IMG/VR virus record: IMGVR_UViG_3300027996_003878
DNA: 64,000 nt
Reading direction: 5' to 3' (one strand)
Origin: a virus
Taxonomy: Duplodnaviria; Caudoviricetes
The translations under genes were made by a program, and so were the position numbers. Shown here one piece after another: positions 25,418 through 43,688 of the stretch (positions are counted from its first letter, which is position 1; every line of letters begins with the position of its first letter). Under the pieces are notes generated by a model. It saw nothing but the letters and a program-made list of their open reading frames with translations. It ran no database searches and was not told the origin of the DNA.

Positions 25418-26795
25418 TTCTAGTCAATCGACCAAACGCAGAGCTTTTCTTTGCAATTTTGTCTTTGACTTTTTGAGCCTGTGATACGGTCTTATCAGTT
25501 CCAGCATCAAGGTTTAATGCTAAATTACGAGTCAAATCTTTGTTTTTAATCGCCTCTAGATGGGTAGATACTTCTTTTTTAAGCTCAGTAACTCTTGAGT
25601 CCGGCAAGCTAAGCCCGCTAAAAAATGAATAGACCTTAATTACATCTTCTTCAATTGTATCATCTACATATATGCCTCTGAAGACGCCAAGAGGAGTTTG
25701 AGCTACGTCTTGAACCATTGCCATAGCATAGTTTATCGATGAGCTTGGTATTTTATCCCAAACCTTTTTATTAGCCAAAAACATTGCTCCAATGTATTTT
25801 GTTTGCTTTAGGTCAAAGCCACTGGCCAATAACCCTGACGTCATATTGCTAATGACTGCCTCAGCAATAGCTGTATCTTCTTCGTAATTATCAATTGTCA
25901 TCCAACCATAGAGACTTAACCCTCCACCATCAGTGACAATCTTTGCCCACTCCATGGGATCCAAGGATTTGACATTTGAAGGCTCTGAGGAAAAGGTGTT
26001 AAATACATCTATAGGCTCAACAATGGCCTTATTGCTAACCCGATAAAACTCCATGGGACTAACATCACTAAAGATGGTTTCGATCTTGGCGTTGTCCACA
26101 ACAATTAAGTTGTTTATTCTCGACGTCTGAACCTCTTTTGCCAGCTTAGAAAGCGCCTCTAAAGAGTTTTTCTTCGTCTGAGGATCCTCATTAGTCATTG
26201 GCAAAACCGTAACAACCAATACCGGCCTTCCTGTCGCTGACAGAATGTCAATCATAGTCTCTACAGACCCACTACCGCTGCCGCCACCTAGAGATGTACA
26301 AAGAATAAAGACCTGACAATCTCCAAGCTTATCATTAACAAGCTCATTTATCTTGTCCTTGTGTGTTTCGGCAGCCTCAAAGCCAAGCTGAGGGTCCTTT
26401 GATGCCCCTCCAAGGCCATACTCAAGCAAACATTTGTTTGACTCAGGTAGATTGATGTGAGTTAAATCTTGCTGCGCTGTATTAAATACAATTGCTTCAT
26501 AGCCAAGATCATAAAAACACTCGGCTAGACGTGAGCCTGCCTGCCCAGAGCCAACAATTCCGAAATCAATACTTCTTGTGCGTCTTTCAACAATCCGAGG
26601 GGGCATATCTTCATCCTTTTGCACGGCCTCTTCGCCACTCTTTTGCTGCTTAGCTTCCATCTGCTTTTTTAAAGCTTGAAGCTTTGCCGCGTCTAATTCA
26701 AGCTCATCTTCAGAAACCATAACTACGGCCTCTTGTGAGATGTCATCGACAATATCATTTTGTGTGGCTTGCCCATTTTCAGTTTTAACAGTCAT
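25392..26795 (-). CDS. Tubulin/FtsZ-superfamily GTPase (PhuZ/TubZ/CetZ-like)
   Basis: GIVGSGQAGSRLAE, GGASKDPQLG, signature TSLGGGSGSG, VVVDN, T7-loop-like SLDPMEW. Confidence 0.92.
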   Translation of the reverse strand: MTVKTENGQATQNDIVDDISQEAVVMVSEDELELDAAKLQALKKQMEAKQQKSGEEAVQKDEDMPPRIVERRTRSIDFGIVGSGQAGSRLAECFYDLGYEAIVFNTAQQDLTHINLPESNKCLLEYGLGGASKDPQLGFEAAETHKDKINELVNDKLGDCQVFILCTSLGGGSGSGSVETMIDILSATGRPVLVVTVLPMTNEDPQTKKNSLEALSKLAKEVQTSRINNLIVVDNAKIETIFSDVSPMEFYRVSNKAIVEPIDVFNTFSSEPSNVKSLDPMEWAKIVTDGGGLSLYGWMTIDNYEEDTAIAEAVISNMTSGLLASGFDLKQTKYIGAMFLANKKVWDKIPSSSINYAMAMVQDVAQTPLGVFRGIYVDDTIEEDVIKVYSFFSGLSLPDSRVTELKKEVSTHLEAIKNKDLTRNLALNLDAGTDKTVSQAQKVKDKIAKKSSAFGRLTRNVIDKRKG

Positions 26796-27745
26796 TCATT
26801 TCCTCTTATATACCATTTATTTTTAAGGTACCAATTAATAGAAAAAGCTATAGTTTCTTTATATTTCGCAGATGGTTTCCAGCCAATACTTTTAAGTTTA
26901 TCACTATTAATTGCGTATCGAGATGCTAAATTATTATCACCTATTATTTCCACCAAATCGTATCCCTGATCAACGCAGGTGCAGATTTCATGAAACATTT
27001 CAATATCAGAAAACTCATAACCAGCAGAAACATTAAAGGTTTCATTTTGATTGGCATTCATCATAATTTGGGTTAGTGCGTTGCATAGATCTCCAACGTA
27101 CAGCCACTCTCTTTGAGTCAAGCCATTATCATATATCTTGGTCTTTTTTTTCTCTAGAATATTCTTCAAAACTCCAGGGATAAAGCTATCGGGGAATTGC
27201 CTTGGCCCAAATAAATCACAAGATCTTAAAATATTGTAATTTAGACCAAATTCAGAACATGCAGCCCTAATAAGAACCTCTGCCGCCACCTTACTTGCAG
27301 CAAAAGAATTAATAGGACTTAATTCTGATGCTTCATCGTGACTTTCTCGACACTTATTTCCATAAACCTCATAGTTGCTTAAATAAAAAATACGCTTTAC
27401 CTCTGCCTTCACGCAAGCATTAATAACATTCGACGTGCCAATTATATTAGTGTCTTGAAATGAATTAAACTGACAATTTTTACCATACGCAGGACGCTCT
27501 TCAGCGGCATGAATTACATAATCAGGTTTTTCTAAAGAAAAAACAACATCCAAAAAATGATTATCTAATATATTTCCAATATAAAATGTATGCCCTTTGT
27601 TTGCATAAACATTATGCAGCCCGAAATGTTTTTTCACTTTATCTAAGCTTACAAATACATAATCTAATTTATTATGTAAAGATTTGCGAATAAAGTTACT
27701 CATAACAAAGCCGCATGAGCCAGTAATAAGCACTTTTTTAGTCAT
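26792..27745 (-). CDS. dTDP-glucose 4,6-dehydratase-like SDR with degenerate catalytic motifs
   Basis: ITGSCGFVMSN, SPINSFAASK (FxxxK instead of YxxxK), FGPRQFP, REWLYVGD. Confidence 0.75.
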   Translation of the reverse strand: MTKKVLITGSCGFVMSNFIRKSLHNKLDYVFVSLDKVKKHFGLHNVYANKGHTFYIGNILDNHFLDVVFSLEKPDYVIHAAEERPAYGKNCQFNSFQDTNIIGTSNVINACVKAEVKRIFYLSNYEVYGNKCRESHDEASELSPINSFAASKVAAEVLIRAACSEFGLNYNILRSCDLFGPRQFPDSFIPGVLKNILEKKKTKIYDNGLTQREWLYVGDLCNALTQIMMNANQNETFNVSAGYEFSDIEMFHEICTCVDQGYDLVEIIGDNNLASRYAINSDKLKSIGWKPSAKYKETIAFSINWYLKNKWYIRGNE

Positions 27746-27760
27746 ATTAATTAAATTAAA

Positions 27761-28693
27761 TTATAAATTATCTTGATACCACGTAATTGTTTTTACCAAG
27801 CCAGTCAAAAGGTTTGTATCAGCTTCAAAATTTAACATTTCTTTTGCACGAGAAACATCAAGCCTTCGTTTAGGCTGACCGTCCGAAACTTCTCCTGTAA
27901 ATAAAACCTCACCATCAAATCCGACTAATTTAGCTATTAAGTGCGCAAGCTCTTTAATTGATATTTCTTTTCCTGTACCTAAATTTATTGGTAATTCAGT
28001 ATCTAGGCTTTGATATACAGCAGATACAATTGCCTTAGCCGCATCTTCCGCATAAAAGAACTCTCTCGTCGCAAGTCCGGTCCCCCAACACCTTACGGTG
28101 GACAATCCCTTATCGACAGCATTAACAAATTTATTTATTAATGCAGGAATAACGTGACTATTAACAAGATCAAAATGATCATGCGGGCCAAATAAATTAA
28201 CAGGAATTAAATGAGCGCCAGCAATGCCGTATTGCTCTCTGTAAGTATTGCCAAGCATCATCAGCGTTCTTTTAGCCTGACCATATGGCGCATTTGTGCT
28301 CTCAGGGTACCCATTAAATATATCGTCTTCTTTAAATGGAGTAGGACAATTTAAAGGATAAGAACATACGCTACCAAGCGTGTACACTCTTTTTACGTTA
28401 AACCTTCGAGCAGATTCAAATATATTAATACCCATTAGGGTATTATCTCTTAAAAAGTCTACTGGGCGATTTTTATTTGCCAATATACCACCACATACCG
28501 CAGCCATATGAACGACTACGTCAGGGCATGTTATGTTAAACAAATGATCGCATTCAACACCAGAAACTAAATCAAATTTCGAACCAACACAAGTAATCGT
28601 GTCATTTAATTCTTTATCTTGTATGTGCTTATCAAAGGCAGCTTCAACGTGTTTTCCTAAAAACCCCGTACCTCCTGTAATTAAAATATTCAC
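27761..28693 (-). CDS. fcl: GDP-L-fucose synthase
   Basis: HMAAVCGGILAN, LGSVCSYP, NAPYGQAK, NLFGPHDHFDLVNSHVIPALI, WGTGLATREF, DGQPKR. Confidence 0.93.
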   Translation of the reverse strand: MNILITGGTGFLGKHVEAAFDKHIQDKELNDTITCVGSKFDLVSGVECDHLFNITCPDVVVHMAAVCGGILANKNRPVDFLRDNTLMGINIFESARRFNVKRVYTLGSVCSYPLNCPTPFKEDDIFNGYPESTNAPYGQAKRTLMMLGNTYREQYGIAGAHLIPVNLFGPHDHFDLVNSHVIPALINKFVNAVDKGLSTVRCWGTGLATREFFYAEDAAKAIVSAVYQSLDTELPINLGTGKEISIKELAHLIAKLVGFDGEVLFTGEVSDGQPKRRLDVSRAKEMLNFEADTNLLTGLVKTITWYQDNL

Positions 28694-28712
28694 CGTTGCT
28701 TCCTTTAAATAA

Positions 28713-29699
28713 TTATAAGTTATCTGCTAGTATTTTTTCTTTTTTAGCTAAATTCAAATCAGCTTCAATCATTTCGTCAACTAATTGAGCGAATGAGTAC
28801 TCTGGACTCCACCCAAGTTCAGCTTTTATTTTAGTCGGATCTCCTTGCAAAGCATCAACCTCTGCTGGTCTTAAATACTTAGCATCAAATTTTACATAAT
28901 CTTTCCAATCTAATTCTAACTTAGAAAAGACCAATTCAAGAAACTCTTTGACAGAGTGCATTCCTCCTGTCGCAACAACATAGTCCTTTGGCTCAGAGGC
29001 TGTTAAGATCATGTAGAGCGCCTTAGCAGTATCCTTAGCGTGCCCCCAGTCGCGCTTAGCATCCAAATTGCCAAGCCTCAATTCATCCTGGAGCCCTAGC
29101 TTTATTCTGGTGGCTGCCCTTGTTATCTTTCTTGTTACAAAATTCTCAGCTCGGCGGGGGCTCTCGTGATTGAACGAAATTGCGTTAACCGCAAACATAC
29201 CATATGACTCACGATAATTAATCGTAGACCAATACGCCGCTAACTTGGCACACGCATAAGGGCTTCTTGGGTGGAAGGTTGTATCTTCATTTTGAGGAGG
29301 GGGCGTAGACCCATAAAGCTCGGAAGTGCTGCATTGCAAGAACCTAGTCTCAGGGCTATACTTTCTAACAGCCTCTAGGCACCTGACCACACCCGTGCCA
29401 GTGACGTCCATTGCGTATTCTGGAACATCAAAGCTAACTCTTACATGAGATAAAGCGCCACAATTGAAAAACAAATCTGGCTTTGTATCAGATATAATAT
29501 TAACCAAAGAAGAGTAATCTGTAAGATCGCCATATACCAGATTAAGATTAGGGTGATTATAAATATGGTCAATTCTCTGTGTGTTAAAATTACTACTGCT
29601 TCTCTTTACACCATGAACCTCGTAGCCCTCCTTCAGCAGAAGCTCAGCCAAATAAGAACCCGTTTGACCTGTAATCCCTGTCAAGCATGCTTTTTTCAT
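28713..29699 (-). CDS. gmd: GDP-mannose 4,6-dehydratase
   Basis: TGITGQTGSYLAE, SHVRVSFDVPEY, STSELYG, PRSPYACAK, FNHESPRR, GNLDAKRDWGHA. Confidence 0.97.
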   Translation of the reverse strand: MKKACLTGITGQTGSYLAELLLKEGYEVHGVKRSSSNFNTQRIDHIYNHPNLNLVYGDLTDYSSLVNIISDTKPDLFFNCGALSHVRVSFDVPEYAMDVTGTGVVRCLEAVRKYSPETRFLQCSTSELYGSTPPPQNEDTTFHPRSPYACAKLAAYWSTINYRESYGMFAVNAISFNHESPRRAENFVTRKITRAATRIKLGLQDELRLGNLDAKRDWGHAKDTAKALYMILTASEPKDYVVATGGMHSVKEFLELVFSKLELDWKDYVKFDAKYLRPAEVDALQGDPTKIKAELGWSPEYSFAQLVDEMIEADLNLAKKEKILADNL

Positions 29700-29711
29700 A
29701 AAACCCTCAAA

Positions 29712-30632
29712 TCAAAAATAATAACTAACTACGCGCCTCAAGCCCTCTTCGAAATCAACCTTTTTCTTCCAGCCCAAAAGCTCAAGATTGCGGCTATACA
29801 ATCTTGTTCTATTAAGCTCACGAGGCACTGCTGGCTTATAAATGATTGAACTTACAGAATCCGTAACTTTCAATAATGAATTCGCTATTTCATTAACACT
29901 TACTTCTTCATTTGAAGATACATTATACACCCCTCGACCTTTTTCTATTAACAATTCAAAAGCATCAATCACATCAGAAATATAAACAAAGTCTCGGGTC
30001 TGATTTCCGGTTCCAAAAATAAATAGATCTTTATCATTAAGAATGTTATCTATAAATATAGAAATAACACCTGCCTCTCCTTTAGGAGACTGACGCTCCC
30101 CAAAAATATTAGCTGGCCTTAAAATACTATAATCTAGATTATGCAATTCTGAATATAATTCAATGTACCTCTCCGAGGTCAGCTTTGACAATCCATAAGG
30201 GGAGCGCGGATTCGTCGCTGACTTTTCTATCCAAGGAAGCATCTCGTAAGGGCAATAAATCGCCCCACCGGTTGACGTGTAAATTAGCTTTTTTATGTCA
30301 TATTTAACACAACATTTTAAAACATTTAAAGTGCCTATTATATTTTCATTTGCATCATTAATTGGATTTTTTATAGAGTCTCTAAGATTTATCTGCGCTG
30401 CCAAGTGAAATACATAATAAAATTTATTTTTTTTAAAGACTGAATCTAATTTATTTATTTTTTTAATGTCACAAAGCTCAAAAGATGCATCTGGATGAAT
30501 GTTTTCCCTAAATCCTGTTGATAGGTTATCTATGACAGTTACTCGATAACCAAGATCTATTAATCTATCAACAAGATGACTGCCGACAAAGCCCGCACCC
30601 CCTAAAACCGCAACTTCAAAACCCTTACCCAT
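29712..30632 (-). CDS. NAD-dependent epimerase/dehydratase (UDP-glucose 4-epimerase-like)
   Basis: GGAGFVGSHL, HLAAQ, STGGAIY, SPYGLSK, NIFGERQ, GEAGVI, QTRDFVY. Confidence 0.9.
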   Translation of the reverse strand: MGKGFEVAVLGGAGFVGSHLVDRLIDLGYRVTVIDNLSTGFRENIHPDASFELCDIKKINKLDSVFKKNKFYYVFHLAAQINLRDSIKNPINDANENIIGTLNVLKCCVKYDIKKLIYTSTGGAIYCPYEMLPWIEKSATNPRSPYGLSKLTSERYIELYSELHNLDYSILRPANIFGERQSPKGEAGVISIFIDNILNDKDLFIFGTGNQTRDFVYISDVIDAFELLIEKGRGVYNVSSNEEVSVNEIANSLLKVTDSVSSIIYKPAVPRELNRTRLYSRNLELLGWKKKVDFEEGLRRVVSYYF

Positions 30633-30657: not shown

Positions 30658-31353
30658 TTATCTAAAAAACATAGTCAAATCGCTGGATATTAACTCGTCA
30701 TATATTTTTTTCGTATATTTATTTTTAAATTGCTGCCTTTTAATATTATAATCAGAATCTGTTAGTTTTTTACTAAAATATCTTTTATCAATTTCCATAT
30801 TTATAACGTCATCTTTTTTCACCATACTTAAGCAATTATTTAATCGTGGCATGTCAAACGAATTATCATTTGAAAAATAATTTATTAACTTGCGGAACCC
30901 CATACTCGTGGCTCCCTTTTTAAGATCTTCATATTTTACACATAAAAATTGACTATCTTTAATTTTTAAATATTTTTCATAATGATTTTTTAATAAGTTT
31001 ATTTGGGTATCAACTAAATTATCAGTTATTTCCTCAACTTCACAGCTTAATAGGGAATAAATAACATCATCAGGATTTCGATATAAATATACAATATCAC
31101 TATGGCTAACAACAAGATCAGAGTGTATGTCATGATCGTGAAACCACATAAACCCACTCTTTCTTTGACTGTCTTTTAAATAACTAACCGGGCCAACTCT
31201 TAATCTAGGCCTATTAAAGTAAAGCTCTAATACACAATTTAACCAATTACTTCCGCTCCTCGGGTAACTTATAAGCAAAGGAACGCTTTCCATTCTTTCA
31301 TCATAAGATCTTCCGTTTGTCTTAAACATTTCTTTATAATCCACTTTAGTCAT
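30658..31353 (-). CDS. Sulfotransferase
   Basis: 5'-PSB motif ISYPRSGSNW and 3'-PB motif YRNPDDVIYS. Confidence 0.85.
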   Translation of the reverse strand: MTKVDYKEMFKTNGRSYDERMESVPLLISYPRSGSNWLNCVLELYFNRPRLRVGPVSYLKDSQRKSGFMWFHDHDIHSDLVVSHSDIVYLYRNPDDVIYSLLSCEVEEITDNLVDTQINLLKNHYEKYLKIKDSQFLCVKYEDLKKGATSMGFRKLINYFSNDNSFDMPRLNNCLSMVKKDDVINMEIDKRYFSKKLTDSDYNIKRQQFKNKYTKKIYDELISSDLTMFFR

Positions 31354-31361
31354 TTTTATAT

Positions 31362-32291
31362 TTAAAAATCTATATCAAAAGGCCAAATCTCTAAACCATG
31401 AATACTCATACACAAATCATTTGATATGAAAACATTTTTAATATTACTATTTGCCCGCTTCATATCATATAGCGATATCATGCCCGGAGTAGAGCCTCCA
31501 ATAATCCAATCGCCTTTAAGTGCTAGCCCCCTACCAAACGGCTGACGTGAAATATTTTGCGTTAAATGAGTGTTTGTCATATCTTTGGCAGGAATACGCT
31601 TAATACTATAACGCTTTTTAATACTGCCATTTTTTTTATCTGTAATTAAAATCTGATTATTCTTAGTATCATTCATAATAAGAGAATTCTCATTTAAAAA
31701 TCTAGTATTATGTGTACCTTTCGGTATTTGCGAAAAACTAATAATCTTTTGTTTGTCTATTTTAAACAAACGCGGCTGATTTGTTCCCGAAAAGAATATA
31801 CCAGAATCATTAACAAATACATTATTTATATGATGGCGATCACCCGTCGGTATATCAACGCTTTGTAGAGGGTTAAACTCTTTAATTGACTTCAGCCCCC
31901 TTACGGAATAACCTTTTATAAATTTACGAGACAATAAATCAAAACATAAAATTACATCTCTGCCTGTGGAAGATAAATACAATTTATCTTTATGAATATA
32001 TGTTTCATGACAGCTTTCTAAATATTCATTACTGTATGAGGCTCTTCTTTTGAAATCAAAGCTATAAAAAACAATACTACTTGAGGAGGCAACAATTACA
32101 TTGTCTTTATAAATACATATGCCTCTTAGCCCTCTATCAGCCCCTCGGCCACTCCAATTTATTTTCTCATTCCAATCTATGACGCATTTATATTTATTAG
32201 AATTTAAATCAACTAAATATAACCCGCCATGGCTAACTCTTTTCGCGCTACGCACTATGTGGCTTGCTATAATATTTGGATATTTTTTCAT
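31362..32291 (-). CDS. Beta-propeller-like protein (reminiscent of DUF4915)
   Basis: Repeated beta-blades: GGLYLVD, RGLRGI, HHINNV, THN, FGRGLA, IHGL. Lies between two sulfotransferases. Confidence 0.5.
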   Translation of the reverse strand: MKKYPNIIASHIVRSAKRVSHGGLYLVDLNSNKYKCVIDWNEKINWSGRGADRGLRGICIYKDNVIVASSSSIVFYSFDFKRRASYSNEYLESCHETYIHKDKLYLSSTGRDVILCFDLLSRKFIKGYSVRGLKSIKEFNPLQSVDIPTGDRHHINNVFVNDSGIFFSGTNQPRLFKIDKQKIISFSQIPKGTHNTRFLNENSLIMNDTKNNQILITDKKNGSIKKRYSIKRIPAKDMTNTHLTQNISRQPFGRGLALKGDWIIGGSTPGMISLYDMKRANSNIKNVFISNDLCMSIHGLEIWPFDIDF

Positions 32292-37122: not shown

Positions 37123-39306
37123 TTATAAGATATTAAATTTATCCAAAACTTCATTGTTATATTTATTTATTTCATCCTTATTATGGAAGCAATTTTTGTT
37201 ATTTTTTATTTTTGAAATATCATCTATCAAAGAATCAAGACCATTAAACTTATCTTTATTCAAATAAACTGTATTAGATTTTTGCTTTAAATACAAGTTA
37301 GACGTCAAAATAGGAATTTTAAAGAAATTAATCATATTCATAAATGAAGATATATAGTTAACATTATTATCTATATCTAAGACAAATTCAGCCATTTGAA
37401 TCACATAAAGCAATTTTTTATATGGCATATATTCGTTTACTGACTGTATAAAGCTCGGATAAGCGCCCCTTCCTCCAACTAGGACAATTTTCGGATAGCT
37501 ATCCTTCCAGTTACGAATCACAAAGTCCAAAGATTTATCATCCCTGTAAAACATAAGTACATACTTATTGTTTTTAAAATATTTATCTTTCGTACAAGTC
37601 GTCGCGAACAAGGGCTTACATTTCAGATGCACCCTTGCGTCTGGGCAAATTGTCTTCAATAACTCAAAATTTTCTAAACAAGGAGTGTATATGACTTTAC
37701 TTTTTTTAAGCACCTCCAATTGATCTTTCGACAATGATATTTTATCAAAAGAATCGACCCAAATATGAGAAGAGGGAACCAACATGCCGACTTCGCCAAT
37801 CAATAAAGAGCCTTTACTTAGACCATTACTCGCATTTAATAACTTCAAGTTAGGGCAAAATGCTTTTAATTTATTATAATAAAGAAATCCAGATGGGGTG
37901 GTCACCGCAATATTATTATTAAATTTAGTGAACTTTATATCTGAATCAGGAATGTAATATCTTGCAAAGAGTTTTGAAGTTGCATAAATTAAATCATCGT
38001 TATATTTTTTACTTACAAAGTTATCTATATTAGATTTTTCAAATATTTTTGAAGACAGAGGTGATATTATCGAGCTATCTAAAGAAGGAATGGCGTGTGC
38101 ATACGTAACTTTTCCATCATTTGCAATAGTAACCCTTGCGATGACGATATCCCCTGAACTCCTCTGCGCCTCTCTTTTTATAAATAATTTAAATGGCGGG
38201 ACTGCATTGCCAGAAGAAAGCTCTGCATGCGCATGAAGTTTACATTTAGCCTCTTTTAATTGAGGAGAAAGGCGGAATGACTCTGAAGTAATCACTCTAT
38301 TAGAGCGATCCATAATACCTACTTCTATAAAACCATTTCCCGTTATTTTCTTTGCAAGAAAATTTACTGTATAATACAAACCCGCCGATAAGGCAGGTAT
38401 AGTTTGTCTTATCAAGGCTCCGCGAGACATGCAAAGGCTTGACTTATTGTTTACATCTAAAAGCCGAACAAGACTTGATGTGACCGCACTGGCATTTAAA
38501 GCTTTTAAGCCATTAGAGTCTACTGTGTCGAAGATAACGCCCACAGGCACCTCTGACATGGTTCCTAAGAGCAGGTCTCTGCCGTATCGCTGCACTTTCC
38601 CACCAGAGCCGCCTGAGCCCTCATTAGGCCGCCTAACGCTCGGGGTTGGCTTGTTTCTATGTTTAAATATGTTTTGATTATTCCTTCTGCGAGCCGGGGG
38701 AGCCTTAGCGCCAGAGCCAAGAGAATAAGATAACACTTCACATGAGCCTAAAAAAACCAAGCGACTGCCGGATTTTTTATACATATTTGCAGGTCTCGTT
38801 TTCAAAACAATATCAGCATAACACCCATCCAAATAAGCGCCATGGCTTGCAAATAACCGACCATTAGAGACTTTTAAATTTTTATAATGCTTACAATACG
38901 AAAGTAACTCCTTCCAATTACCCTCAGACTTAGCCTCATTCTTCACAAAATACAAATTCACTTCTATTAACTTAATATCACCAGAGCTGTGCGCTGTTCT
39001 TGATAATTCAAAAGATTTAAAATTAGAAAAATCTGGCTCTATTATCTCCTGAGATTTCGATGATACAACATGATTTTTATTATGAATGCCGCTATTTTTA
39101 AATTCTGTAATTTTAAATAATCCATTTCCCGATTTGCGAGAGAATACCAAATCACAGCGCTCAATCTCACCCACGCCGCTAAAGTTGAACTTTAACCTTG
39201 CTGCCTTTCCTTCCAGGAGGCAACCGTCATTATCGAACCTACAAGATCTGTAAGAGGTAATAAAACTTTTAAGATGCAAGCCAGTGATTTGTTTTATACT
39301 AGTCAT
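37123..39306 (-). CDS. Mosaic protein: two repeated beta-sandwich-like modules plus a degenerate GT-B-like C-terminus
   Basis: Duplicated ..GNG..SSGDI.. module. C-terminal region has a GT-B-like alternation of strands and helices. Confidence 0.45.
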   Translation of the reverse strand: MTSIKQITGLHLKSFITSYRSCRFDNDGCLLEGKAARLKFNFSGVGEIERCDLVFSRKSGNGLFKITEFKNSGIHNKNHVVSSKSQEIIEPDFSNFKSFELSRTAHSSGDIKLIEVNLYFVKNEAKSEGNWKELLSYCKHYKNLKVSNGRLFASHGAYLDGCYADIVLKTRPANMYKKSGSRLVFLGSCEVLSYSLGSGAKAPPARRRNNQNIFKHRNKPTPSVRRPNEGSGGSGGKVQRYGRDLLLGTMSEVPVGVIFDTVDSNGLKALNASAVTSSLVRLLDVNNKSSLCMSRGALIRQTIPALSAGLYYTVNFLAKKITGNGFIEVGIMDRSNRVITSESFRLSPQLKEAKCKLHAHAELSSGNAVPPFKLFIKREAQRSSGDIVIARVTIANDGKVTYAHAIPSLDSSIISPLSSKIFEKSNIDNFVSKKYNDDLIYATSKLFARYYIPDSDIKFTKFNNNIAVTTPSGFLYYNKLKAFCPNLKLLNASNGLSKGSLLIGEVGMLVPSSHIWVDSFDKISLSKDQLEVLKKSKVIYTPCLENFELLKTICPDARVHLKCKPLFATTCTKDKYFKNNKYVLMFYRDDKSLDFVIRNWKDSYPKIVLVGGRGAYPSFIQSVNEYMPYKKLLYVIQMAEFVLDIDNNVNYISSFMNMINFFKIPILTSNLYLKQKSNTVYLNKDKFNGLDSLIDDISKIKNNKNCFHNKDEINKYNNEVLDKFNIL

Positions 39307-40072
39307 CGCCTTTATTTATATATAGTGACTTTACTCTATTAGCGTACAATCTGCAATTTTCATAAAATTTTGCCAAATTATCCTGATGAGCTTTTGTCTT
39401 AAACTCTCTATACTCACCGCGATCATTTTCACCTTCGCCAAGATGCACGCCATTCTCTTTTAAATACCCAAGGCGGAAGCCTAAGACCCTCGTCCGCATT
39501 CCCCAATCACTATCCTCCATTCCATAATACTTATAATCATGCTCATTAAAATATCCCAACATTTTATGTAAAGATTTATTAAAAACCATGCAAGCGGTCC
39601 CTAAATTACCCTGAGGTTTGTCCTGAAACTCAAACCCGTTTTTACTCACTAAGGTATAGTCAACATGCTCAAAATTAACCCCAATGGATCCATATTGAGG
39701 GTTATTTTTTACAATTTCAATGCAGTCAGTAAGCCAATTATTGGGAACAAGGACATCATTATCAATTGTAGCATACCAAGTTGTGTCTAAATCATTAGCC
39801 AAACTTAGCGCTTGGTTTCTAGCAATGGCAATTCCTTTATTTTCATTATTAAAATGAACTACCAATTCATTCAGACTGTCACAGCCAGGCTTAGTTTCAA
39901 TAAGTTCTTTTAAATATTTTATTGTATCATCTTTTTCAGAAAAATTATCAATTATAACAAGATTAAATGGGTGATTTGTTGTTTCAAACAAATTAGCCAA
40001 CATTTTTTTTGTCAAATCTAGACGATTAAATGTTACCATCATTACAGTTGCAATGTCTTTCATATTTTTCAA
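39299..40072 (-). CDS. Glycosyltransferase family 2
   Basis: MMVTFNR, IIDNFS, NKGIAIARN, IDND, YGMEDSDW. Confidence 0.88.
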   Translation of the reverse strand: MKNMKDIATVMMVTFNRLDLTKKMLANLFETTNHPFNLVIIDNFSEKDDTIKYLKELIETKPGCDSLNELVVHFNNENKGIAIARNQALSLANDLDTTWYATIDNDVLVPNNWLTDCIEIVKNNPQYGSIGVNFEHVDYTLVSKNGFEFQDKPQGNLGTACMVFNKSLHKMLGYFNEHDYKYYGMEDSDWGMRTRVLGFRLGYLKENGVHLGEGENDRGEYREFKTKAHQDNLAKFYENCRLYANRVKSLYINKGDD

Positions 40073-40076
40073 CCTT

Positions 40077-41054
40077 TTATTTTTTTAAAAAGAGATCTGC
40101 AATTTTATTAGGCGATAGATCTCTGCTAGTGTATATAACATTTTTATTTCCTAAAAATGTATTGTTCTTATTTAAATTAAAAGAAGTTTTTTGCGGTAGA
40201 GATATTAATCTACCACTCGATACAGCATTTGATACTAATAAATAATCTATTTCCTTCGAAAGGACCCCCGAAGCTTTTTTCAATAATATTAAAATAAAAC
40301 TCCATTTAAAGGGACAAACGACCGCTGAACTGTACAAATATGCTGATTTTTTATTAGAAATAATGACAGCCTGCACCCCTCCTTGCTTTAGAAAGGCCAC
40401 AAACGAACGCAATTGATTCAAGCTCCACCTCAAGCACTGCTTATTATGAATCGAATAGCCCGTAACATCTGGAAAAATCACTACGAACGGCTTTTGCGGG
40501 CTAAACTTATTTATCTTAGCCCAGCTGGCAAAGCCTTTACATGAATTGAAATTAAGATTCCTAAACTTTGGAATGAACTTATTGCTCCAATCAACAAGAC
40601 CATTGCTAACTATTTGTTTAATCAAACAGATAGGGTTTTTAAAACTCCTAGTGCTTGCTATAGACTTTGCTTTTAGGTAATTATTTAAAGAATTAAAATA
40701 AACATTTCTTTTTTTATCTAGAAAAATAGGCGCAGGATATTTTTTCACCAAGTCTTTTAAAGAGCTGTCTGCCTGATCTGAAACAATACCTTGCAATTTG
40801 ACTAGTTCAAAAAAGCAATTTTCGCCGGACCAACGCAAGGATGAATTAGGAAAATTATAATTCAACATCTCTATTATAGCCAGTGAGTAAAAAGACTCTA
40901 AAGCGCCCCCATGAGCTATAATAGTTATCTTCTTTTTATCAATTATTTCACTCAATAGATCATAATCAATTTTTGGCGCTATAATCCCACCCTTAACTTC
41001 CCACGGAATCCCCGGAGAAAAGGGCAAATATTTAATTTTAGGACTTGACTTCAT
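40077..41054 (-). CDS. GT9 (heptosyltransferase)-like protein, divergent
   Basis: AHGGALESFYS..ML, VVIFPD..WSLNQL..FL..G and LLKKAS follow the GT9 layout, but the canonical GD and DSG motifs are altered. Confidence 0.45.
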   Translation of the reverse strand: MKSSPKIKYLPFSPGIPWEVKGGIIAPKIDYDLLSEIIDKKKITIIAHGGALESFYSLAIIEMLNYNFPNSSLRWSGENCFFELVKLQGIVSDQADSSLKDLVKKYPAPIFLDKKRNVYFNSLNNYLKAKSIASTRSFKNPICLIKQIVSNGLVDWSNKFIPKFRNLNFNSCKGFASWAKINKFSPQKPFVVIFPDVTGYSIHNKQCLRWSLNQLRSFVAFLKQGGVQAVIISNKKSAYLYSSAVVCPFKWSFILILLKKASGVLSKEIDYLLVSNAVSSGRLISLPQKTSFNLNKNNTFLGNKNVIYTSRDLSPNKIADLFLKK

Positions 41055-41853
41055 TATAGCAGGGATTTTCTAAATACTTATGATAATCAATCACATACTT
41101 CCCTAGCCATTTTTCCTGAAAAAATCTAACATTATGAGACAAAAACATCTTATTTACAGGGTTTTTGTTTAACGATGCAGATGTCTTGTGCTCAATGTTA
41201 GTCGAACCGCAGCACACAACTTTTTCCTTTTGATTGATACTAATTTCTAAATTTAGATCTATATCCTCAAAGCTCCAATGTAAGTTTTTATTTAACTTCC
41301 CCGCCTTTTTATAACTGGAAGCCTTTACAAGACAACACGCAGCTGTGACCGCTTGAAAATATCTATTTTTCCTATCAAAAGAGCCCGTGCTTTCATGTGA
41401 CTTGATGTGCCAAGGCATATTTCCATGATTTCTGGAAAAAGCTACACCACAATGGCTTATTAAGTTTGTGTCAGGGAATAGAATTCTAGCACCACAGATT
41501 GCAGAATTTGTTTTAGACATTAAATCAATCATATTTGATATAGAAGCATCATCACAAAAACTGATATCATTATTTAATAATAAAACTAAATCATCGTCAC
41601 TTACACCAGACTCATCAAATAAAGAATTTACACCGACAGAAAAATTATCTCTATTGTGATCTTTTTTCAATAAATGAATTTTAGAAGAGCCTTTGCTCCA
41701 TTTGCTTATTTCATCAGGAGAGCCGTCCTTGCTCCCGTTATCACGAATCCACCAATTCCAATCAAATTTACTTAAGTTCGCCTCAAGCCCAGGCTTAAGC
41801 TTTTTAAGCATATCAAGGCCATTCCAATTTAATGTAAGTGCAAAAATCTTCAT
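41038..41853 (-). CDS. Glycosyltransferase family 2
   Basis: LTLNWN, RDNGSKD, LLNND, AVTAACCL, EDIDL. Confidence 0.88.
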   Translation of the reverse strand: MKIFALTLNWNGLDMLKKLKPGLEANLSKFDWNWWIRDNGSKDGSPDEISKWSKGSSKIHLLKKDHNRDNFSVGVNSLFDESGVSDDDLVLLLNNDISFCDDASISNMIDLMSKTNSAICGARILFPDTNLISHCGVAFSRNHGNMPWHIKSHESTGSFDRKNRYFQAVTAACCLVKASSYKKAGKLNKNLHWSFEDIDLNLEISINQKEKVVCCGSTNIEHKTSASLNKNPVNKMFLSHNVRFFQEKWLGKYVIDYHKYLENPCYNEVKS

Positions 41854-41869
41854 CTTTCAAACCCCTCAA

Positions 41870-42565
41870 TTAAACTCTTCCAGACCACTTGTCTGTAAAA
41901 ATTCTTTTCGCACCTTGATATAGCTCGCTAACACCCAGCTGATGGGCAGTTATGTGTCCAAAATGGATGACGGGAATCGGCACAAGTCTAAAGCCAATAC
42001 CTATTTCAGATGCCCTAAAACTTAAATCTGTATCCTCAAAAAAAGCAATACCAAACTCTTCACTAAATACCTGGCCATCCTTTGTCAAATCTAATTTATT
42101 CCAAGTATTTTTAGACGCACCAAGACACCAGCCACTCATATAATTAATAGGGCGACTTTCATCATTTGTTTCATATACAAAATCAAAAGTTTCAGAGACT
42201 AGCCCCCCTGTTGGACCAACCAATACATCATTCTCTTTATCTATAGCGTCAATCAGATCATCAACCCAAGAATCTCGACGTGACTTAACCCTTATGTCGT
42301 TGTTAAGAAATAAAACAGACTCTCCGCTGGACTCACGATAACCTCTATTACAACCTTTGGCGAAACCCTCATTCTGATCATTGCGTAAATACAATATATT
42401 ATTGTACCCCGAAAGCTCTCTGTGAGTTTGGTCTGTACTGCCGTTGTCCACAACTACAACCTCGCAATAATCAGGAAGCAACGCTAAATCCTTCAAACAA
42501 GCCTGCGTAAAATTAAACTTATTCCAAACAGGAATAACAATGCTTATCTTATATTTTTTATCCAT
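41870..42565 (-). CDS. Glycosyltransferase family 2
   Basis: IVIPVWN, VDNGSTD, GFAKGCN, FLNND, FEDTDL. Start reassigned to the ATG at 42565 (GAGG SD), removing the overlap with the upstream gene. Confidence 0.9.
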   Translation of the reverse strand: MDKKYKISIVIPVWNKFNFTQACLKDLALLPDYCEVVVVDNGSTDQTHRELSGYNNILYLRNDQNEGFAKGCNRGYRESSGESVLFLNNDIRVKSRRDSWVDDLIDAIDKENDVLVGPTGGLVSETFDFVYETNDESRPINYMSGWCLGASKNTWNKLDLTKDGQVFSEEFGIAFFEDTDLSFRASEIGIGFRLVPIPVIHFGHITAHQLGVSELYQGAKRIFTDKWSGRV

Positions 42566-42566
42566 A

Positions 42567-43688
42567 CTATACCTCGCATAAGGATAACATCTGACTCGCC
42601 ACATTATCCCAAGTAAATTTATCAACCGTCTCACTCATAGCCGAGCTAAATTTTTCTTTTAAAGCGTCAAGGTTATCAACAGCATATTTTAACTTAGAGG
42701 AAGCGTCTTCTAGATCTGGAACAAACATTTTTGCGTAAACACTAGGCGTCCAATATTGATAATTCTTTGGACACCTACCTTCTTTTCCAGATACTAGCAA
42801 TGAATTGCGATCATTCATAAAATCTAAATTTCCACCATTATTTGAAGCTATGACAACATTACCAGCCGCCATACCCTGTAAGCTAGGTATGTGAAAGCAC
42901 TCTATGTTAGAGAGCGAAAAATGAATATCACAAGTCAAAAAAAGAGACTCTATATTATCGATATAATCATAAATAACTTCAATATCTGCATGATTTGGAT
43001 TTTTCCTTTTCCATCTTTTAAAAAGATCAGAAAAACTCAACTCAAAAGGTTGCATGGGTTTTTTATTCACAACCTTTAGGACCAAGCAAACATCATCTTT
43101 TTTTGTAAAAGCTCTATTATAAGCATTCAAAATGCCTTCTAGATTCTTTCTTCTGTGAGCCTGACCGCATACATTTAAAATTTTTACTTTTTTATTTGTT
43201 TTTAATTTGTAAAACTGATCATCTGGCAACTCAAAGTCATCTTTATTGATGCCATGATGTATCACAGCCAACTTGCCTTTAGGGATATTGTTGTTTAAAA
43301 AAATATTTTTAGAATATTCTGATGATGGAAGTAATTTATCTATGAAATTATGATACTTCGCCCAACCCTTAGGTATTACAGAGCCATCGTAATTATAAAT
43401 GCCAAATCTATTTTTGGCTCCGTGAGATAAATAAGCAGGAAAATTATGCATCGCAGTATAACTAAACTGCATGTCGTATTCTTTGTATTTATTTAATAAA
43501 TATTTATCAACACCTTTTGATCTAAAGCCAAGTAAATTTGGCTTTAGATCTTCAGGAAAATGCTGAATACCGTTGGTAGACATAAGATGAACATCATGAC
43601 CCAACTTTATAAATGCCCTTGCAAGATTTCTCCCTACGACCGACCAGGAGTGGTTCTTACCAAGAAATTGTTGCGATATTATTCTCAA
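42567..43688 (-). CDS. Glycosyltransferase family 4 (GT-B)
   Basis: LLPSSEY, HRRKN, ECFHIPSLQGMAAG..VIAS..GGNLDF, FTWD. Confidence 0.88.
   Translation of the reverse strand: MRIISQQFLGKNHSWSVVGRNLARAFIKLGHDVHLMSTNGIQHFPEDLKPNLLGFRSKGVDKYLLNKYKEYDMQFSYTAMHNFPAYLSHGAKNRFGIYNYDGSVIPKGWAKYHNFIDKLLPSSEYSKNIFLNNNIPKGKLAVIHHGINKDDFELPDDQFYKLKTNKKVKILNVCGQAHRRKNLEGILNAYNRAFTKKDDVCLVLKVVNKKPMQPFELSFSDLFKRWKRKNPNHADIEVIYDYIDNIESLFLTCDIHFSLSNIECFHIPSLQGMAAGNVVIASNNGGNLDFMNDRNSLLVSGKEGRCPKNYQYWTPSVYAKMFVPDLEDASSKLKYAVDNLDALKEKFSSAMSETVDKFTWDNVASQMLSLCEV

What the first reader, a model, noticed from the sequence alone, without database searches (positions are those of the whole stretch)
26792..43688. 17-kb phage glycan factory: GDP-fucose pathway plus alpha-1,2 and alpha-1,3 fucosyltransferases, sulfotransferases and a methyltransferase
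Seen: gmd, fcl, two further SDRs, two sulfotransferases, a SAM methyltransferase, GT11, GT10, four GT2, GT4, CgeB-like and GT9-like genes in one block, directly downstream of the baseplate operon. Established: Gmd plus Fcl make GDP-L-fucose, and GT11 plus GT10 together build Lewis-type difucosylated epitopes in Helicobacter pylori. Inference: the phage builds a fucosylated, sulfated, methylated glycan on its virion or on the host surface (shielding, superinfection exclusion or mimicry). No Wzx/Wzy/ABC exporter is present in the window, which favours cytoplasmic protein or virion glycosylation.
Basis: partly seen in the sequence, partly recalled or inferred. Interest (0 to 1): 0.78.

Follow-up and report, generated by a model that had tools for sequence, protein, structure and literature searches.

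The report
Jumbo-phage fucose/sulfate glycan-building gene island
A widespread uncultured marine jumbo phage carries, directly after its tail-fibre genes, about 18 soluble enzymes able to build a fucose-containing, sulfated, methylated sugar chain; relatives keep the same island core with different tailoring genes, and its most likely but unproven job is to sugar-coat the phage particle itself.

Summary
Window 26792-43688 holds 18 tightly packed genes. They are Gmd, a true GDP-L-fucose synthase, a GalE-like epimerase, an RmlB-like dehydratase, two PAPS-type sulfotransferases and a small SAM methyltransferase. There are also GT11 and GT10 fucosyltransferase homologues with their motifs, four GT2, one GT4, one GT9-like and one CgeB-like GT.

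It is not a chimera. Contigs from four independent seawater metagenomes bridge both junctions. Relatives at 40-68% protein identity, including a 459-kb phage genome rated complete, keep the order baseplate J, 2200-aa protein, 980-aa dockerin protein, GT core, variable tailoring genes, RmlB-like gene, tubulin.

No cluster protein has a membrane span. No initiating phosphoglycosyltransferase, Wzx or Wzy/ligase was found in any of the four phage records. A relative encodes APS kinase.

The acceptor is unknown. Glycosylation of virion proteins in the cytoplasm is the best reading (about 0.5). Remodelling of the host surface is the main rival (about 0.3). Similar gmd-fcl-GT11 clusters are already annotated in T4-like cyanophages, so this is a new, larger, sulfating variant of a known kind. 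Other windows of this scan noted the same stretch.

The parts
26792..27745 (-). RmlB-like NDP-hexose 4,6-dehydratase (SDR1). It is the last island gene, overlaps the tubulin gene start by 4 nt, and is conserved in all four compared phages.
   Evidence: PF01370/PF16363. TIGR01181 scores 214 bits, below its cut-off. E 1e-43 to solved dTDP-glucose 4,6-dehydratases. Synteny.
27761..28693 (-). GDP-L-fucose synthase (Fcl/GMER).
   Evidence: NF047922 is the best hit at 240 bits, below its cut-off of 500. E 1e-51 to solved GDP-fucose synthases, with aligned catalytic S-x-C, YxxxK and GPHD positions.
28713..29699 (-). GDP-mannose 4,6-dehydratase (Gmd).
   Evidence: TIGR01472 scores 443 bits against a cut-off of 415. 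PF16363 at 408 bits. 66-68% identical in G001 and G003.
29712..30632 (-). GalE-like UDP-hexose 4-epimerase (SDR4). Found only in this phage among the four compared.
   Evidence: E 7e-74 to the solved UDP-glucose 4-epimerase 4zrm..
30658..31353 (-). PAPS-type sulfotransferase 1.
   Evidence: PF00685 scores 31.8 bits against a cut-off of 22. The 5'-PSB motif YPRSGSNW and the 3'-PB motif RNPDDVIYS were read.
31362..32291 (-). Beta-propeller of an uncharacterised family with no Pfam model. It has 22 invariant residues, which suggests an enzyme.
   Evidence: 90 homologues and invariant H/E/N/R columns. Model pLDDT 93. Only generic propeller matches. A homologue sits inside a sulfotransferase-rich polysaccharide cluster of a Vicingaceae genome.
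32288..33025 (-). Sulfotransferase 2. It is divergent and has no Pfam hit.
   Evidence: Atlas feature score 0.97 and structural TM 0.64-0.71 to Sulfotransfer_1/_3 clusters. Motifs GLPHSGTT and FREP...S. 37% identical homologue in G001.
33022..33570 (-). Small class I SAM-dependent methyltransferase with an FkbM-like fold.
   Evidence: Atlas structural TM 0.84 to FkbM and class I methyltransferases; model pLDDT 0.90. No Pfam hit.
33580..34572 (-). CgeB/YkvP-like glycosyltransferase. Its homologous N-terminus (ATG at 34572) is cut off by an in-frame TGA at 34534-34536, inside a 9-nt insertion. The remaining ORF restarts at the GTG at 34524.
   Evidence: PF13524 at 78.7 bits. N-terminal comparison with the G001 and G003 homologues. 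The insertion is present, with no gaps, in contigs of four independent runs. TGA is an ordinary stop in 5 of 23 neighbouring genes.
34618..35349 (-). GT11 family fucosyltransferase homologue (alpha-1,2 type).
   Evidence: PF01531 at 73 bits. phrog_2644 at 183 bits. Motifs GQLGNQLFQ and HVRRTDY.
35356..36099 (-). GT2 glycosyltransferase (a).
   Evidence: PF00535 at 67.6 bits.
36153..37109 (+). GT10 family fucosyltransferase homologue (alpha-1,3/4 type). It is the only + strand gene, and the opposite orientation is conserved in relatives.
   Evidence: PF00852 at 29.2 bits against a cut-off of 23.9. The C-terminal ENS...YFTEK motif aligns to FucTA (E 5e-4) and FUT9. It is on the reverse strand also in G003, L029 and a third contig.
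37123..39306 (-). 727-aa lineage-specific protein: two CBM-like beta-sandwich domains plus a C-terminal CgeB/GT-B-like domain.
   Evidence: No Pfam, NCBIfam or PHROG hit. 194 cluster representatives. Model pLDDT 83. Foldseek matches to tandem CBM51/CBM22 and to CgeB/YkvP-domain proteins at E 1e-17. hhalign to the island's CgeB family is weak.
39299..40072 (-). GT2 glycosyltransferase (b).
   Evidence: PF00535 at 60.9 bits.
40077..41054 (-). GT9-like GT-B glycosyltransferase, supported by structure only.
   Evidence: Atlas structural TM 0.67 to a PF01075 cluster. No Pfam hit. Conserved in G001 and G003.
41038..41853 (-). GT2 glycosyltransferase (c). Core gene, present in all four phages.
   Evidence: PF00535 at 34.3 bits against a cut-off of 23.3..
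41870..42565 (-). GT2 glycosyltransferase (d). Core gene. The start is corrected to the ATG at 42565.
   Evidence: PF00535 at 73.6 bits. Homologues align from residue 29 onwards. ATG at codon 24.
42567..43688 (-). GT4/GT-B glycosyltransferase. It is the first island gene and a core gene in all four phages.
   Evidence: PF00534 at 29.6 bits against a cut-off of 26.4. PF13439 also hits, but below its cut-off..
43815..46757 (-). 980-aa structural protein with a dockerin-type Ca-binding pair, always directly upstream of the island. It is one candidate acceptor or scaffold.
   Evidence: PF00404 at 36.8 bits. Same neighbour in G001, G003, G004, L029 and L030.
46763..56640 (-). 2212-aa protein and baseplate-J protein. 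This is the structural module that the island follows.
   Evidence: PF04865 at 70.8 bits. 42-57% identical in relatives.
25157..26795 (-). Tubulin/TubZ-like gene (25392-26795) followed by the only strong hairpin terminator of the region (25157-25194). This marks the downstream border.
   Evidence: PF00091 at 65 bits. 15-16-bp stem terminator.

Best explanation
This is a resident, lineage-conserved glycan-synthesis island of an uncultured marine jumbo phage.

Shown from sequence:
- Gmd plus Fcl can convert host GDP-mannose to GDP-L-fucose.
- A GalE-like epimerase and an RmlB-like dehydratase can supply further activated sugars.
- About eleven soluble glycosyltransferases are encoded. A core of GT4, GT2, GT2, GT9-like, GT2 and the 727-aa CBM-CgeB-like protein is kept across relatives. 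GT10, GT2, GT11 and CgeB-like genes follow.
- Two PAPS-type sulfotransferases and a SAM methyltransferase are encoded.

Inferred:
- The enzymes act in the cytoplasm of the infected cell and build a fucosylated, sulfated, methylated oligosaccharide.
- The oligosaccharide is built directly on a protein acceptor, without a lipid carrier or export step.
- The acceptor is most likely the phage's own virion. Candidates are the tail-fibre or baseplate-distal proteins encoded just upstream, or capsid decoration proteins.
- This would work like glycosylation of chlorovirus and mimivirus particles, of mycobacteriophage capsids and tail tubes, and of the Bacillus spore crust by CgeB.
- The variable 3' half of the island would give each phage strain its own glycan type.
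For: Gene identities.

The island belongs to the phage:
- Near-identical DNA was found in at least 19 marine metagenomes from about 19 studies.
- Contigs from four independent runs bridge the junction with the 980-aa gene and the junction with the tubulin gene.
- The same order is kept in G001 (459 kb, CheckV 100%), G003, G004, L029 and L030 at 33-68% protein identity.
- GC matches the flanks.

The pathway is cytoplasmic and carrier-independent as far as the phage encodes it:
- No cluster protein has a credible membrane span.
- PF02397, PF00953, PF01943 and PF04932 are absent from all four phage records, while the control genomes were positive.

Sulfation is taken seriously by the lineage:
- G001 encodes an APS kinase at 229 bits.
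- Relatives carry other sulfotransferase families.

Link to structural genes:
- The island always directly follows the 2200-aa and 980-aa structural genes on the same strand.
- No terminator-like hairpin lies between them. The only strong one lies after the tubulin gene.

Hints of protein glycosylation:
- There are two CgeB-like enzymes, and B. subtilis CgeB is reported to glycosylate the crust protein CgeA at Thr112 (PMC13577073).
- The 727-aa protein adds tandem CBM-like domains.

Precedents:
- Virion glycosylation by virus-encoded glycosyltransferases in mycobacteriophages (Freeman 2023, as summarised in PMC12619734).
- The same in giant viruses, with clade-specific gene clusters (PMC10117803, PMC9614988).
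Against: - No glycan, glycoprotein or acceptor has been observed. The phage is uncultured.
- No recognised protein-glycosylating initiator was identified, such as a GT41-type N-glycosyltransferase or an oligosaccharyltransferase.
- Absence of exporter genes also fits use of the host's own undecaprenyl-phosphate machinery.
- In cyanophages, similar clusters are conventionally read as host LPS or cell-wall modifiers (PMC1079782, PMC9602691).
- The island is also contiguous with replication genes downstream, so its timing of expression is unknown.
- The CgeB-like gene of this particular phage has a premature stop, so part of the pathway may be decaying.
- The Fcl and RmlB-like proteins score below NCBIfam equivalog cut-offs.
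Confidence: 0.5

Rival explanations
1. Host-surface remodelling. The island's soluble enzymes feed into the host's own undecaprenyl-phosphate pathway, using the host's initiating transferase, flippase and ligase. This builds or alters an LPS O-antigen, capsule or S-layer glycan during infection. The effect would be to block superinfection or to stop progeny virions from being trapped on lysed-cell debris.
For: - The gene repertoire looks like the cytoplasmic half of a bacterial O-antigen or capsule cluster.
- The beta-propeller's homologue lies inside such a cluster, with sulfotransferases, in a Vicingaceae genome.
- This is the standard reading of the P-SSM2 and S-SCSM1 clusters (PMC1079782, PMC9602691).
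- The hypervariable tailoring region resembles serotype diversity.
Against: - None of the 18 genes here, or about 35 in G001, is a membrane protein. None of the four records, including the one rated complete, has an initiating transferase, Wzx, or Wzy/ligase.
- Known seroconverting phage modules are small and membrane-embedded.
- Host flippases and ligases would have to accept a foreign glycan built by about eleven transferases.
- The conserved position next to tail-fibre genes is not explained.
Confidence: 0.3
2. Another cytoplasmic acceptor. The glycan is attached to phage DNA bases, as in hypermodification, or to a small molecule or lipid rather than to protein.
For: - Phage glycosyltransferases are known to hypermodify DNA with glycans (bioRxiv 10.1101/2023.12.21.572611).
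- The island abuts replication genes: tubulin, UvsW, DnaB and RNR.
Against: - No conserved base-hydroxymethylation route was found. A ThyA-family gene occurs only in this record, at a score typical of thymidylate synthase, and not in the complete relative G001.
- About eleven transferases plus sulfation and methylation far exceed known DNA glycans.
- CBM-like domains and CgeB-like enzymes point to glycan or protein surfaces.
Confidence: 0.07
3. Decaying or non-functional cargo. The island is an old acquisition that no longer yields a defined product in this phage.
For: A premature TGA in the CgeB-like gene is fixed in four independent metagenomes. Gene content turns over strongly between relatives.
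Against: - The other 17 ORFs are intact, with catalytic motifs retained.
- Core genes are conserved at 33-68% identity across deeply diverged genomes.
- The 727-aa family has 194 representatives at 50% identity, mostly full length.
- The truncated gene keeps a 314-aa ORF from an internal GTG.
Confidence: 0.05
4. Assembly chimera: a bacterial O-antigen or capsule island wrongly joined to phage DNA.
For: None was found beyond the bacterial look of the genes.
Against: Contigs from four independent runs of four studies bridge both junctions without differences. Synteny is conserved in at least five other phage contigs. Composition equals the flanks.
Confidence: 0.01

Closest known systems
'LPS/cell-wall' gene clusters of T4-like cyanophages: P-SSM2 (24 genes), S-SCSM1 (gmd, fcl, O-FucT, alpha-1,2-FucT, NodZ, 5 GTs) and ACG-2014f (gmd-SDR-GT11-GT6-GT25)
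   Same: - They are lytic marine myoviruses.
- They have gmd plus fcl plus a GT11 fucosyltransferase and several soluble glycosyltransferases in one block.
- In ACG-2014f, no exporter is annotated in the retrieved 25-kb region, and the block lies close upstream of a tail-fibre gene.
- Their function is equally untested (PMC1079782, PMC9602691).
   Different: - Gmd is only about 54% identical, and no DNA similarity to any phage record was found.
- Here there are also two sulfotransferases, with APS kinase in a relative.
- Also new here are GT10, GT9-like and two CgeB-like enzymes, a CBM-bearing 727-aa protein and a beta-propeller.
- The island has a conserved glycosyltransferase core at a fixed locus between the tail-fibre genes and a tubulin gene, across a whole jumbo-phage lineage.
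Giant-virus glycosylation machinery: chlorovirus PBCV-1 capsid glycans, and the Megavirinae fibril glycans with clade-specific gene clusters
   Same: - The virus encodes both nucleotide-sugar synthesis and the glycosyltransferases and methyltransferases.
- Glycans are built in the cytoplasm on virion proteins.
- Cluster content varies by clade (PMC10117803, PMC9614988).
   Different: - Those are eukaryotic dsDNA viruses unrelated to tailed phages.
- The term 'sulfotransferase' does not occur in the 2022 review.
- There the glycans were determined chemically. Here nothing is measured.
Mycobacteriophage virion glycosylation (Freeman et al. 2023, Cell Host Microbe; as summarised in PMC12619734)
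   Same: Phage-encoded glycosyltransferases modify capsid and tail-tube subunits in the cytoplasm and shield the virion.
   Different: - From my own knowledge, those phages use few transferases and host-made sugar donors. I could not read the paper itself.
- Their hosts are actinobacteria.
- No nucleotide-sugar pathway, fucose or sulfate is involved as far as I know.
Bacillus subtilis spore-crust glycosylation (cgeAB and sps genes)
   Same: - Soluble CgeB-type transferases add glycans to a protein shell inside the mother-cell cytoplasm, with no lipid carrier or export.
- CgeB is reported to modify CgeA at Thr112 (PMC13577073).
- The island has a PF13524 enzyme and a second CgeB-like domain protein.
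   Different: Sequence similarity is limited to the PF13524 domain. The acceptor proteins are unrelated. It is a cellular system, not a viral one.
Helicobacter pylori Lewis-antigen fucosyltransferases: FutA/FutB (GT10) and FutC (GT11)
   Same: Families GT10 and GT11 co-occur with a GDP-fucose pathway. The family motifs HxRRxD and ENS...TEK are present.
   Different: - There was no direct significant match to the H. pylori enzymes. The best solved GT10 matches are plant FucTA and human FUT9, at E 5e-4 to 7e-3.
- Acceptor and linkage cannot be inferred.
- The H. pylori glycan is assembled on a lipid carrier for LPS.
Sulfated polysaccharide or O-antigen clusters of marine Bacteroidota (example: Vicingaceae MAG locus L025)
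   Same: They show the same mix of GT2, GT1, SDR, DegT, methyltransferase and sulfotransferases, plus a homologue of the island's beta-propeller.
   Different: The bacterial cluster contains membrane proteins such as Acyl_transf_3 and sits in a cellular genome. The phage island keeps only soluble steps.

Membership tests
De novo GDP-L-fucose pathway (Gmd + Fcl/GMER) | Gmd matches the equivalog model above the trusted cut-off. | tested here: met
   TIGR01472 scores 443.4 bits against a cut-off of 415.
De novo GDP-L-fucose pathway (Gmd + Fcl/GMER) | Fcl is a bifunctional epimerase/reductase with the catalytic Ser/Cys, Tyr-x3-Lys and His residues. | tested here: met
   E 1e-51 to solved GDP-L-fucose synthases. 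LGSVCSYP, YGQAK and GPHDHF align to the catalytic positions. The NCBIfam equivalog score of 240 is below its cut-off of 500.
De novo GDP-L-fucose pathway (Gmd + Fcl/GMER) | A supply of GDP-mannose (ManC/ManB). | tested here: not met
   PF00483 is absent from all four phage records. The substrate must come from the host. This is a dependency and does not break the pathway.
CAZy GT11 (alpha-1,2-fucosyltransferase family) | Pfam PF01531 above the gathering score, plus the HxRRxD motif. | tested here: met
   73 bits against 23.9. HVRRTDY and the N-terminal GNQLFQ motif are present.
CAZy GT11 (alpha-1,2-fucosyltransferase family) | Alpha-1,2 transfer of fucose to a terminal galactose. | not testable with these tools
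   This needs an enzyme assay.
CAZy GT10 (alpha-1,3/4-fucosyltransferase family) | Pfam PF00852 above the gathering score, plus the C-terminal FxxxFENS...YxTEK nucleotide-binding motif. | tested here: met
   29.2 bits against 23.9. CSENS...YFTEK aligns to FucTA (E 5e-4) and FUT9. The margin is small.
PAPS-dependent sulfotransferases (Sulfotransfer_1/_3) | 5'-PSB and 3'-PB PAPS-binding motifs plus a family model match. | tested here: met
   - Gene 30658-31353: PF00685 at 31.8 bits against 22, and both motifs are present.
- Gene 32288-33025: motif-like GLPHSGTT and FREP..S. Only feature and structure similarity supports it, with no HMM hit.
PAPS-dependent sulfotransferases (Sulfotransfer_1/_3) | A PAPS donor is available. 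| tested here: inconclusive
   APS kinase is present in the complete relative G001. It is absent from the 94 kb held for this phage, which is only 22% of its genome. No ATP sulfurylase was found.
Bacterial Wzx/Wzy- or ABC-dependent O-antigen/capsule cluster | An initiating phosphoglycosyltransferase, a flippase or ABC exporter, and a polymerase/ligase. | tested here: not met
   - PF02397, PF00953, PF01943 and PF04932 gave no hit in G000, G001, G003 or G004, while controls were positive.
- No multi-span protein lies in the island.
- ABC-2 (Wzm/Wzt) exporter families were not searched.
Phage seroconversion modules (GtrABC, O-acetyltransferase type) | A small module of integral-membrane enzymes that acts on periplasmic or lipid-linked O-antigen. 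| tested here: not met
   All 18 products are predicted soluble. No Gtr-like Pfam hit.
Virus-encoded virion glycosylation systems (mycobacteriophage, chlorovirus, Megavirinae) | The virus encodes the glycosyltransferases and, in giant viruses, the nucleotide-sugar enzymes. | tested here: met
   Phage ownership is shown.
Virus-encoded virion glycosylation systems (mycobacteriophage, chlorovirus, Megavirinae) | The glycan is demonstrated on virion proteins. | not testable with these tools
   This needs virions or heterologous co-expression with mass spectrometry.
Moraphages (PMC12619734) | Membership of the described 25-genome lineage, which has up to 307 kb and four core glycosyltransferase orthogroups. 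| tested here: inconclusive
   The paper gives no identifiers that I could match. Its text never mentions tubulin. The relative G001 is 459 kb.

The most novel reading that the evidence does not exclude
A large, globally distributed lineage of marine jumbo phages coats its own virion, most plausibly the fibre or baseplate-distal proteins encoded next to the island, with complex strain-specific glycans. The glycans would be fucosylated, sulfated and methylated, and in relatives would also carry formyl- or acetyl-perosamine and Kdo- or sialic-acid-like sugars added by a GT29 enzyme. They would be assembled directly on protein in the cytoplasm. A conserved core of glycosyltransferases, including a new CBM-CBM-CgeB-like enzyme family, would build them, and a hypervariable tailoring cassette would diversify them. 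This would be a viral 'serotype' system and the first sulfated virion glycan in phages.
Probability: 0.35. Interest if true: 0.8.

Novelty: new variant of a known kind. Interest (0 to 1): 0.58.

Why it matters
Whether tailed phages of the ocean decorate their particles with self-made complex glycans is an open question. So far only mycobacteriophages (simple glycans) and eukaryotic giant viruses have experimental proof.

This island gives a concrete, widespread test case:
- It has a fixed locus.
- It has a conserved glycosyltransferase core.
- It has a marker family, the 727-aa protein, with 194 clusters at 50% identity.
- It has a variable tailoring region that includes sulfation, with a phage APS kinase in a relative.

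If the acceptor is the virion, it would change how we think about:
- phage adsorption to marine particles and mucus;
- grazing and decay;
- recognition by hosts.

It would also supply new soluble fucosyl- and sulfo-transferases for glyco-engineering. If the acceptor is the host surface, it would be the largest lytic-phage surface-remodelling module known.

Tried and rejected
- Megablast of the whole island against 50,697 phage records found no match.
- The search for related loci with the tubulin and with the 727-aa protein as single queries found nothing. The baseplate-J query worked.
- Sequence searches of the five unassigned ORFs against PDB chains gave only chance-level hits. PHROGs recognised only GT11. 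NCBIfam gave nothing for them.
- The word-index homology search for the 727-aa protein returned only itself. The exhaustive search was needed.
- Fold searches of the beta-propeller gave only generic WD40/NHL/YVTN matches, so no function is assigned. One bacterial context (L024) was uninformative.
- The profile-profile comparison of the 727-aa family with the island's CgeB family was weak (probability 22%). The CgeB-like call for its C-terminus rests on structure only.
- Expression: no RNA holder is listed for this stretch.
- The Tet_JBP family search hit none of the control genomes, so it is uninformative.
- Moraphage membership could not be decided.
- Freeman et al. 2023 is not held in the library. 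It is cited only through papers that summarise it.
- Sigma-70 promoter-like sites are no more frequent than in shuffles, so they were not used.
- I considered and rejected TGA recoding as the explanation for the CgeB stop, because TGA ends 5 of 23 neighbouring genes.
- I considered and rejected an invertible GT10 switch, because the reverse orientation is fixed in diverged relatives.
- Complex prediction was not used, because an enzyme-substrate pair is a poor case for it.

Full report
**What the window is.** The window is bases 16738-80737 of a 94,369-bp IMG/VR viral contig that CheckV rates 22% complete. An exact copy of one island protein occurs on a 296,258-bp contig. The region around the finding is clearly phage:
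- baseplate J, a sheath-initiator-like protein, and 2212-aa and 980-aa structural proteins upstream;
- a tubulin/TubZ-like gene, UvsW-like and DnaB-like helicases and an intein-bearing ribonucleotide reductase downstream.

The only cultured relative found through baseplate J is Bacillus phage G, at 30% identity.

**Checking the observation.** Between 26792 and 43688 there are 18 ORFs. All are on the minus strand except one, and they overlap or lie at most about 90 nt apart.
- Gmd passes the NCBIfam equivalog cut-off, 443 against 415 bits.
- The neighbouring SDR is a real GDP-L-fucose synthase. It scores E 1e-51 to solved enzymes, and the Ser-x-Cys, Tyr-x3-Lys and His positions align. It falls below the strict equivalog cut-off.
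- The other two SDRs are GalE-like (E 7e-74) and RmlB-like (E 1e-43).
- One sulfotransferase passes Pfam and shows both PAPS-binding motifs.
- The second sulfotransferase has no HMM hit. It is placed among sulfotransferases by language-model features (0.97) and predicted structure (TM about 0.7).
- The 182-aa protein has an FkbM-like class I methyltransferase fold.
- The 325-aa protein has a GT9-like fold.
- GT11 scores 73 bits and carries HVRRTDY. GT10 scores 29 bits, and its ENS...TEK motif aligns to FucTA and FUT9. Both pass their gathering scores.
- Four GT2, one GT4 and one CgeB-like (PF13524) gene are also confirmed.

- The 309-aa protein is a confidently modelled beta-propeller with pLDDT 93. 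Its family has at least 90 homologues, no Pfam model and 22 invariant residues. Fold searches gave only generic propellers. In a Vicingaceae (Bacteroidota) genome, its homologue sits in the middle of a polysaccharide cluster with two sulfotransferases, a methyltransferase and many glycosyltransferases.
- The 727-aa protein has no family hit at all. An exhaustive search found 194 cluster representatives. Its model (pLDDT 83) shows two beta-sandwich domains that resemble tandem carbohydrate-binding modules, plus a C-terminal alpha/beta domain. That domain matches CgeB/YkvP-domain proteins in AlphaFold DB at E 1e-17. Profile-profile similarity to the island's own CgeB family is weak.

**Is it really phage DNA?** Yes.
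- The stretch occurs near-identically in at least 19 seawater, marine or estuary metagenomes from about 19 studies.
- Contigs from four independent runs cover the junction between the 980-aa gene and GT4, and the junction between the last SDR and the tubulin gene. Three of the four runs show no differences.
- Eight IMG/VR contigs encode baseplate J at 49-59% identity.
- In the three I extended, the order is kept: baseplate J, about 2200 aa, about 980 aa dockerin protein, GT4, GT2, GT2, then variable genes, RmlB-like SDR, tubulin. One of the three is a 458,729-bp genome rated complete.
- Three further contexts, reached through homologues of the 727-aa protein, show the same layout.
- Base composition equals the flanks.

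The chimera hypothesis is refuted.

**Architecture across the lineage.**
- The 5' half is a conserved core: GT4, GT2, GT2, GT9-like, GT2 and the 727-aa protein. It is often followed by GT10 (always on the opposite strand), GT2, GT11 and CgeB-like.
- The 3' half is a variable tailoring cassette.
- This phage's cassette holds methyltransferase, sulfotransferase, beta-propeller, sulfotransferase, GalE-like, Gmd and Fcl.
- G001's cassette holds a GNAT, a formyltransferase, three methyltransferases, a GT29 sialyltransferase-family protein, DHDPS-like, KdsA-like and CMP-sugar synthetase genes, and a DegT aminotransferase, plus Gmd and Fcl.
- G003's cassette holds FkbM, another methyltransferase, an ATP-grasp enzyme and DegT.
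- Other contigs carry Sulfotransfer_4, TylF, WbqC, a carbamoyltransferase or PglD-like genes.
- G004 has only the minimal core.
- Island length ranges from about 8 kb to about 27 kb.

**Where does the glycan go?** Nothing here measures it, so this part is inference.
- None of the island proteins has a credible transmembrane segment. The two marginal hydropathy peaks are no higher than those of the soluble tubulin.
- The 94-kb record has no transporter-like protein.
- Neither family of initiating phosphoglycosyltransferase, nor Wzx, nor Wzy/O-antigen-ligase, was found in any of the four phage records. Control genomes were positive.
- GDP-mannose must come from the host.
- A relative supplies its own APS kinase, which suggests sulfation is a selected function.
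- The only strong terminator-like hairpin between the tail genes and the replication genes lies after the tubulin gene. The island is therefore not visibly insulated from the structural genes upstream.
- CgeB, the founding member of PF13524, is reported to O-glycosylate the spore-crust protein CgeA in the mother-cell cytoplasm (PMC13577073).
- Virus-encoded transferases are known to glycosylate virions in mycobacteriophages (summarised in PMC12619734). The same holds in giant viruses, whose clusters are also clade-specific (PMC10117803, PMC9614988).

Together this favours direct cytoplasmic glycosylation of phage structural proteins, at about 0.5.

The main rival, at about 0.3, is that the soluble enzymes feed the host's own lipid-carrier pathway to change the cell surface. 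This is the usual interpretation of the comparable cyanophage clusters (PMC1079782, PMC9602691). DNA hypermodification is unlikely, because no conserved base-hydroxymethylation route was found.

**The Lewis-antigen idea.** GT10 plus GT11 plus GDP-fucose is the enzyme set that H. pylori uses for Lewis x/y. That point is established knowledge from my own memory. Here, family membership is all that is shown. The best solved GT10 matches are plant FucTA and human FUT9, and only over the nucleotide-binding motif. Acceptor and linkage cannot be inferred.

**Comparison with what is known.** Gmd occurs in 241 phage records, mostly Synechococcus and Escherichia phages.
- ACG-2014f has a gmd, SDR, GT11, GT6 and GT25 block close upstream of a tail-fibre gene.
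- S-SCSM1 has 13 such genes, including three fucosyltransferase types.
- P-SSM2 has 24.

The kind is therefore known, though functionally untested. What is new here:
- sulfation;
- the combination of GT10, GT9-like and CgeB-like enzymes;
- the two uncharacterised families;
- the core-plus-cassette organisation at a fixed locus across a diverse jumbo-phage lineage.

I found no paper that describes this island. The moraphage paper notes four core glycosyltransferase orthogroups in aquatic jumbo phages, but I could not establish that this is the same lineage.

**Verdict.** This is a new variant of a known kind, of moderate to high interest.

Noticed in passing
window 34522-34572: The CgeB-like gene has a 9-nt insertion (TGAATTGGT) that carries an in-frame TGA at 34534-34536. 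Homologues in G001 and G003 read straight through (MRVLFAPLNFGDVIQ versus MVKVLYLPLNYG*IGDVIQ). Contigs of four independent metagenomes cover the site without gaps, so it is real. The first beta-strand of the enzyme is cut off unless there is read-through or an internal GTG start.
   Followed up: yes
window 36153-37109; L021 16038-16946; L029 12163-13113: The GT10 gene lies on the opposite strand in every relative that has it, at 37% identity and below. The inverted orientation is therefore ancestral and fixed. That argues against an invertible on/off switch bounded by the 8-bp inverted repeat noted by another reader.
   Followed up: partly
L020 7466-11451 (G001:C1 about 335466-339451): The complete 459-kb relative encodes a GT29 (sialyltransferase family) protein at 85.6 bits. 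Next to it are a methyltransferase gene and DHDPS/NAL-like, KdsA-like (DAHP_synth_1) and CMP-sugar synthetase genes. This looks like a phage-encoded Kdo- or sialic-acid-like sugar pathway with a eukaryote-type transferase.
   Followed up: no
L028 1483-2031 (G001:C1 391880-392335): The complete relative encodes an APS kinase (PF01583, 229 bits), about 46 kb downstream of its glycan island. No ATP sulfurylase was found. The phage appears to boost PAPS supply.
   Followed up: partly
window 43815-46757 and homologues in L019, L021, L023: The tripeptide DGY is strongly enriched in the 980-aa dockerin protein. Counts are 13, 10, 8 and 3 in the four phages, against about 0.2-0.3 expected. The lowest count is in the phage with the minimal island. 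Some copies sit in dockerin-type Ca loops (DVNGDGY, DVDGDGY), and others form runs (DGYVEDGYGDGYG). Their meaning is unknown, and four genomes are too few to correlate.
   Followed up: partly
window 25157-25194: A perfect 15-16-bp hairpin with T-runs on both strands lies between the tubulin gene and the UvsW-like helicase gene. It is the only strong terminator-like site in 20 kb, and it suggests the tubulin gene ends the transcription unit that contains the island.
   Followed up: no
L023 10342-12960 and 14903-15889 (G004): In the phage with the minimal island, an 872-aa protein with nine Big_3_5 Ig-like domains is inserted between the dockerin protein and GT4. A 328-aa protein with a strong N-terminal hydrophobic anchor sits among the glycosyltransferases. 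It is the only membrane-anchored candidate seen in any island.
   Followed up: no
window 58917-61028: A 703-aa protein upstream of the baseplate genes has four hydrophobic segments between residues 88 and 215. It may be a tape-measure-like or membrane-active tail protein.
   Followed up: no
L022 11603-12031 (G003): A TnsA-like endonuclease gene lies inside the variable part of the G003 island, and a LAGLIDADG/NUMOD3 homing-endonuclease-like gene lies inside the L029 island (L029 14748-15827). Mobile nucleases may drive cassette turnover.
   Followed up: no
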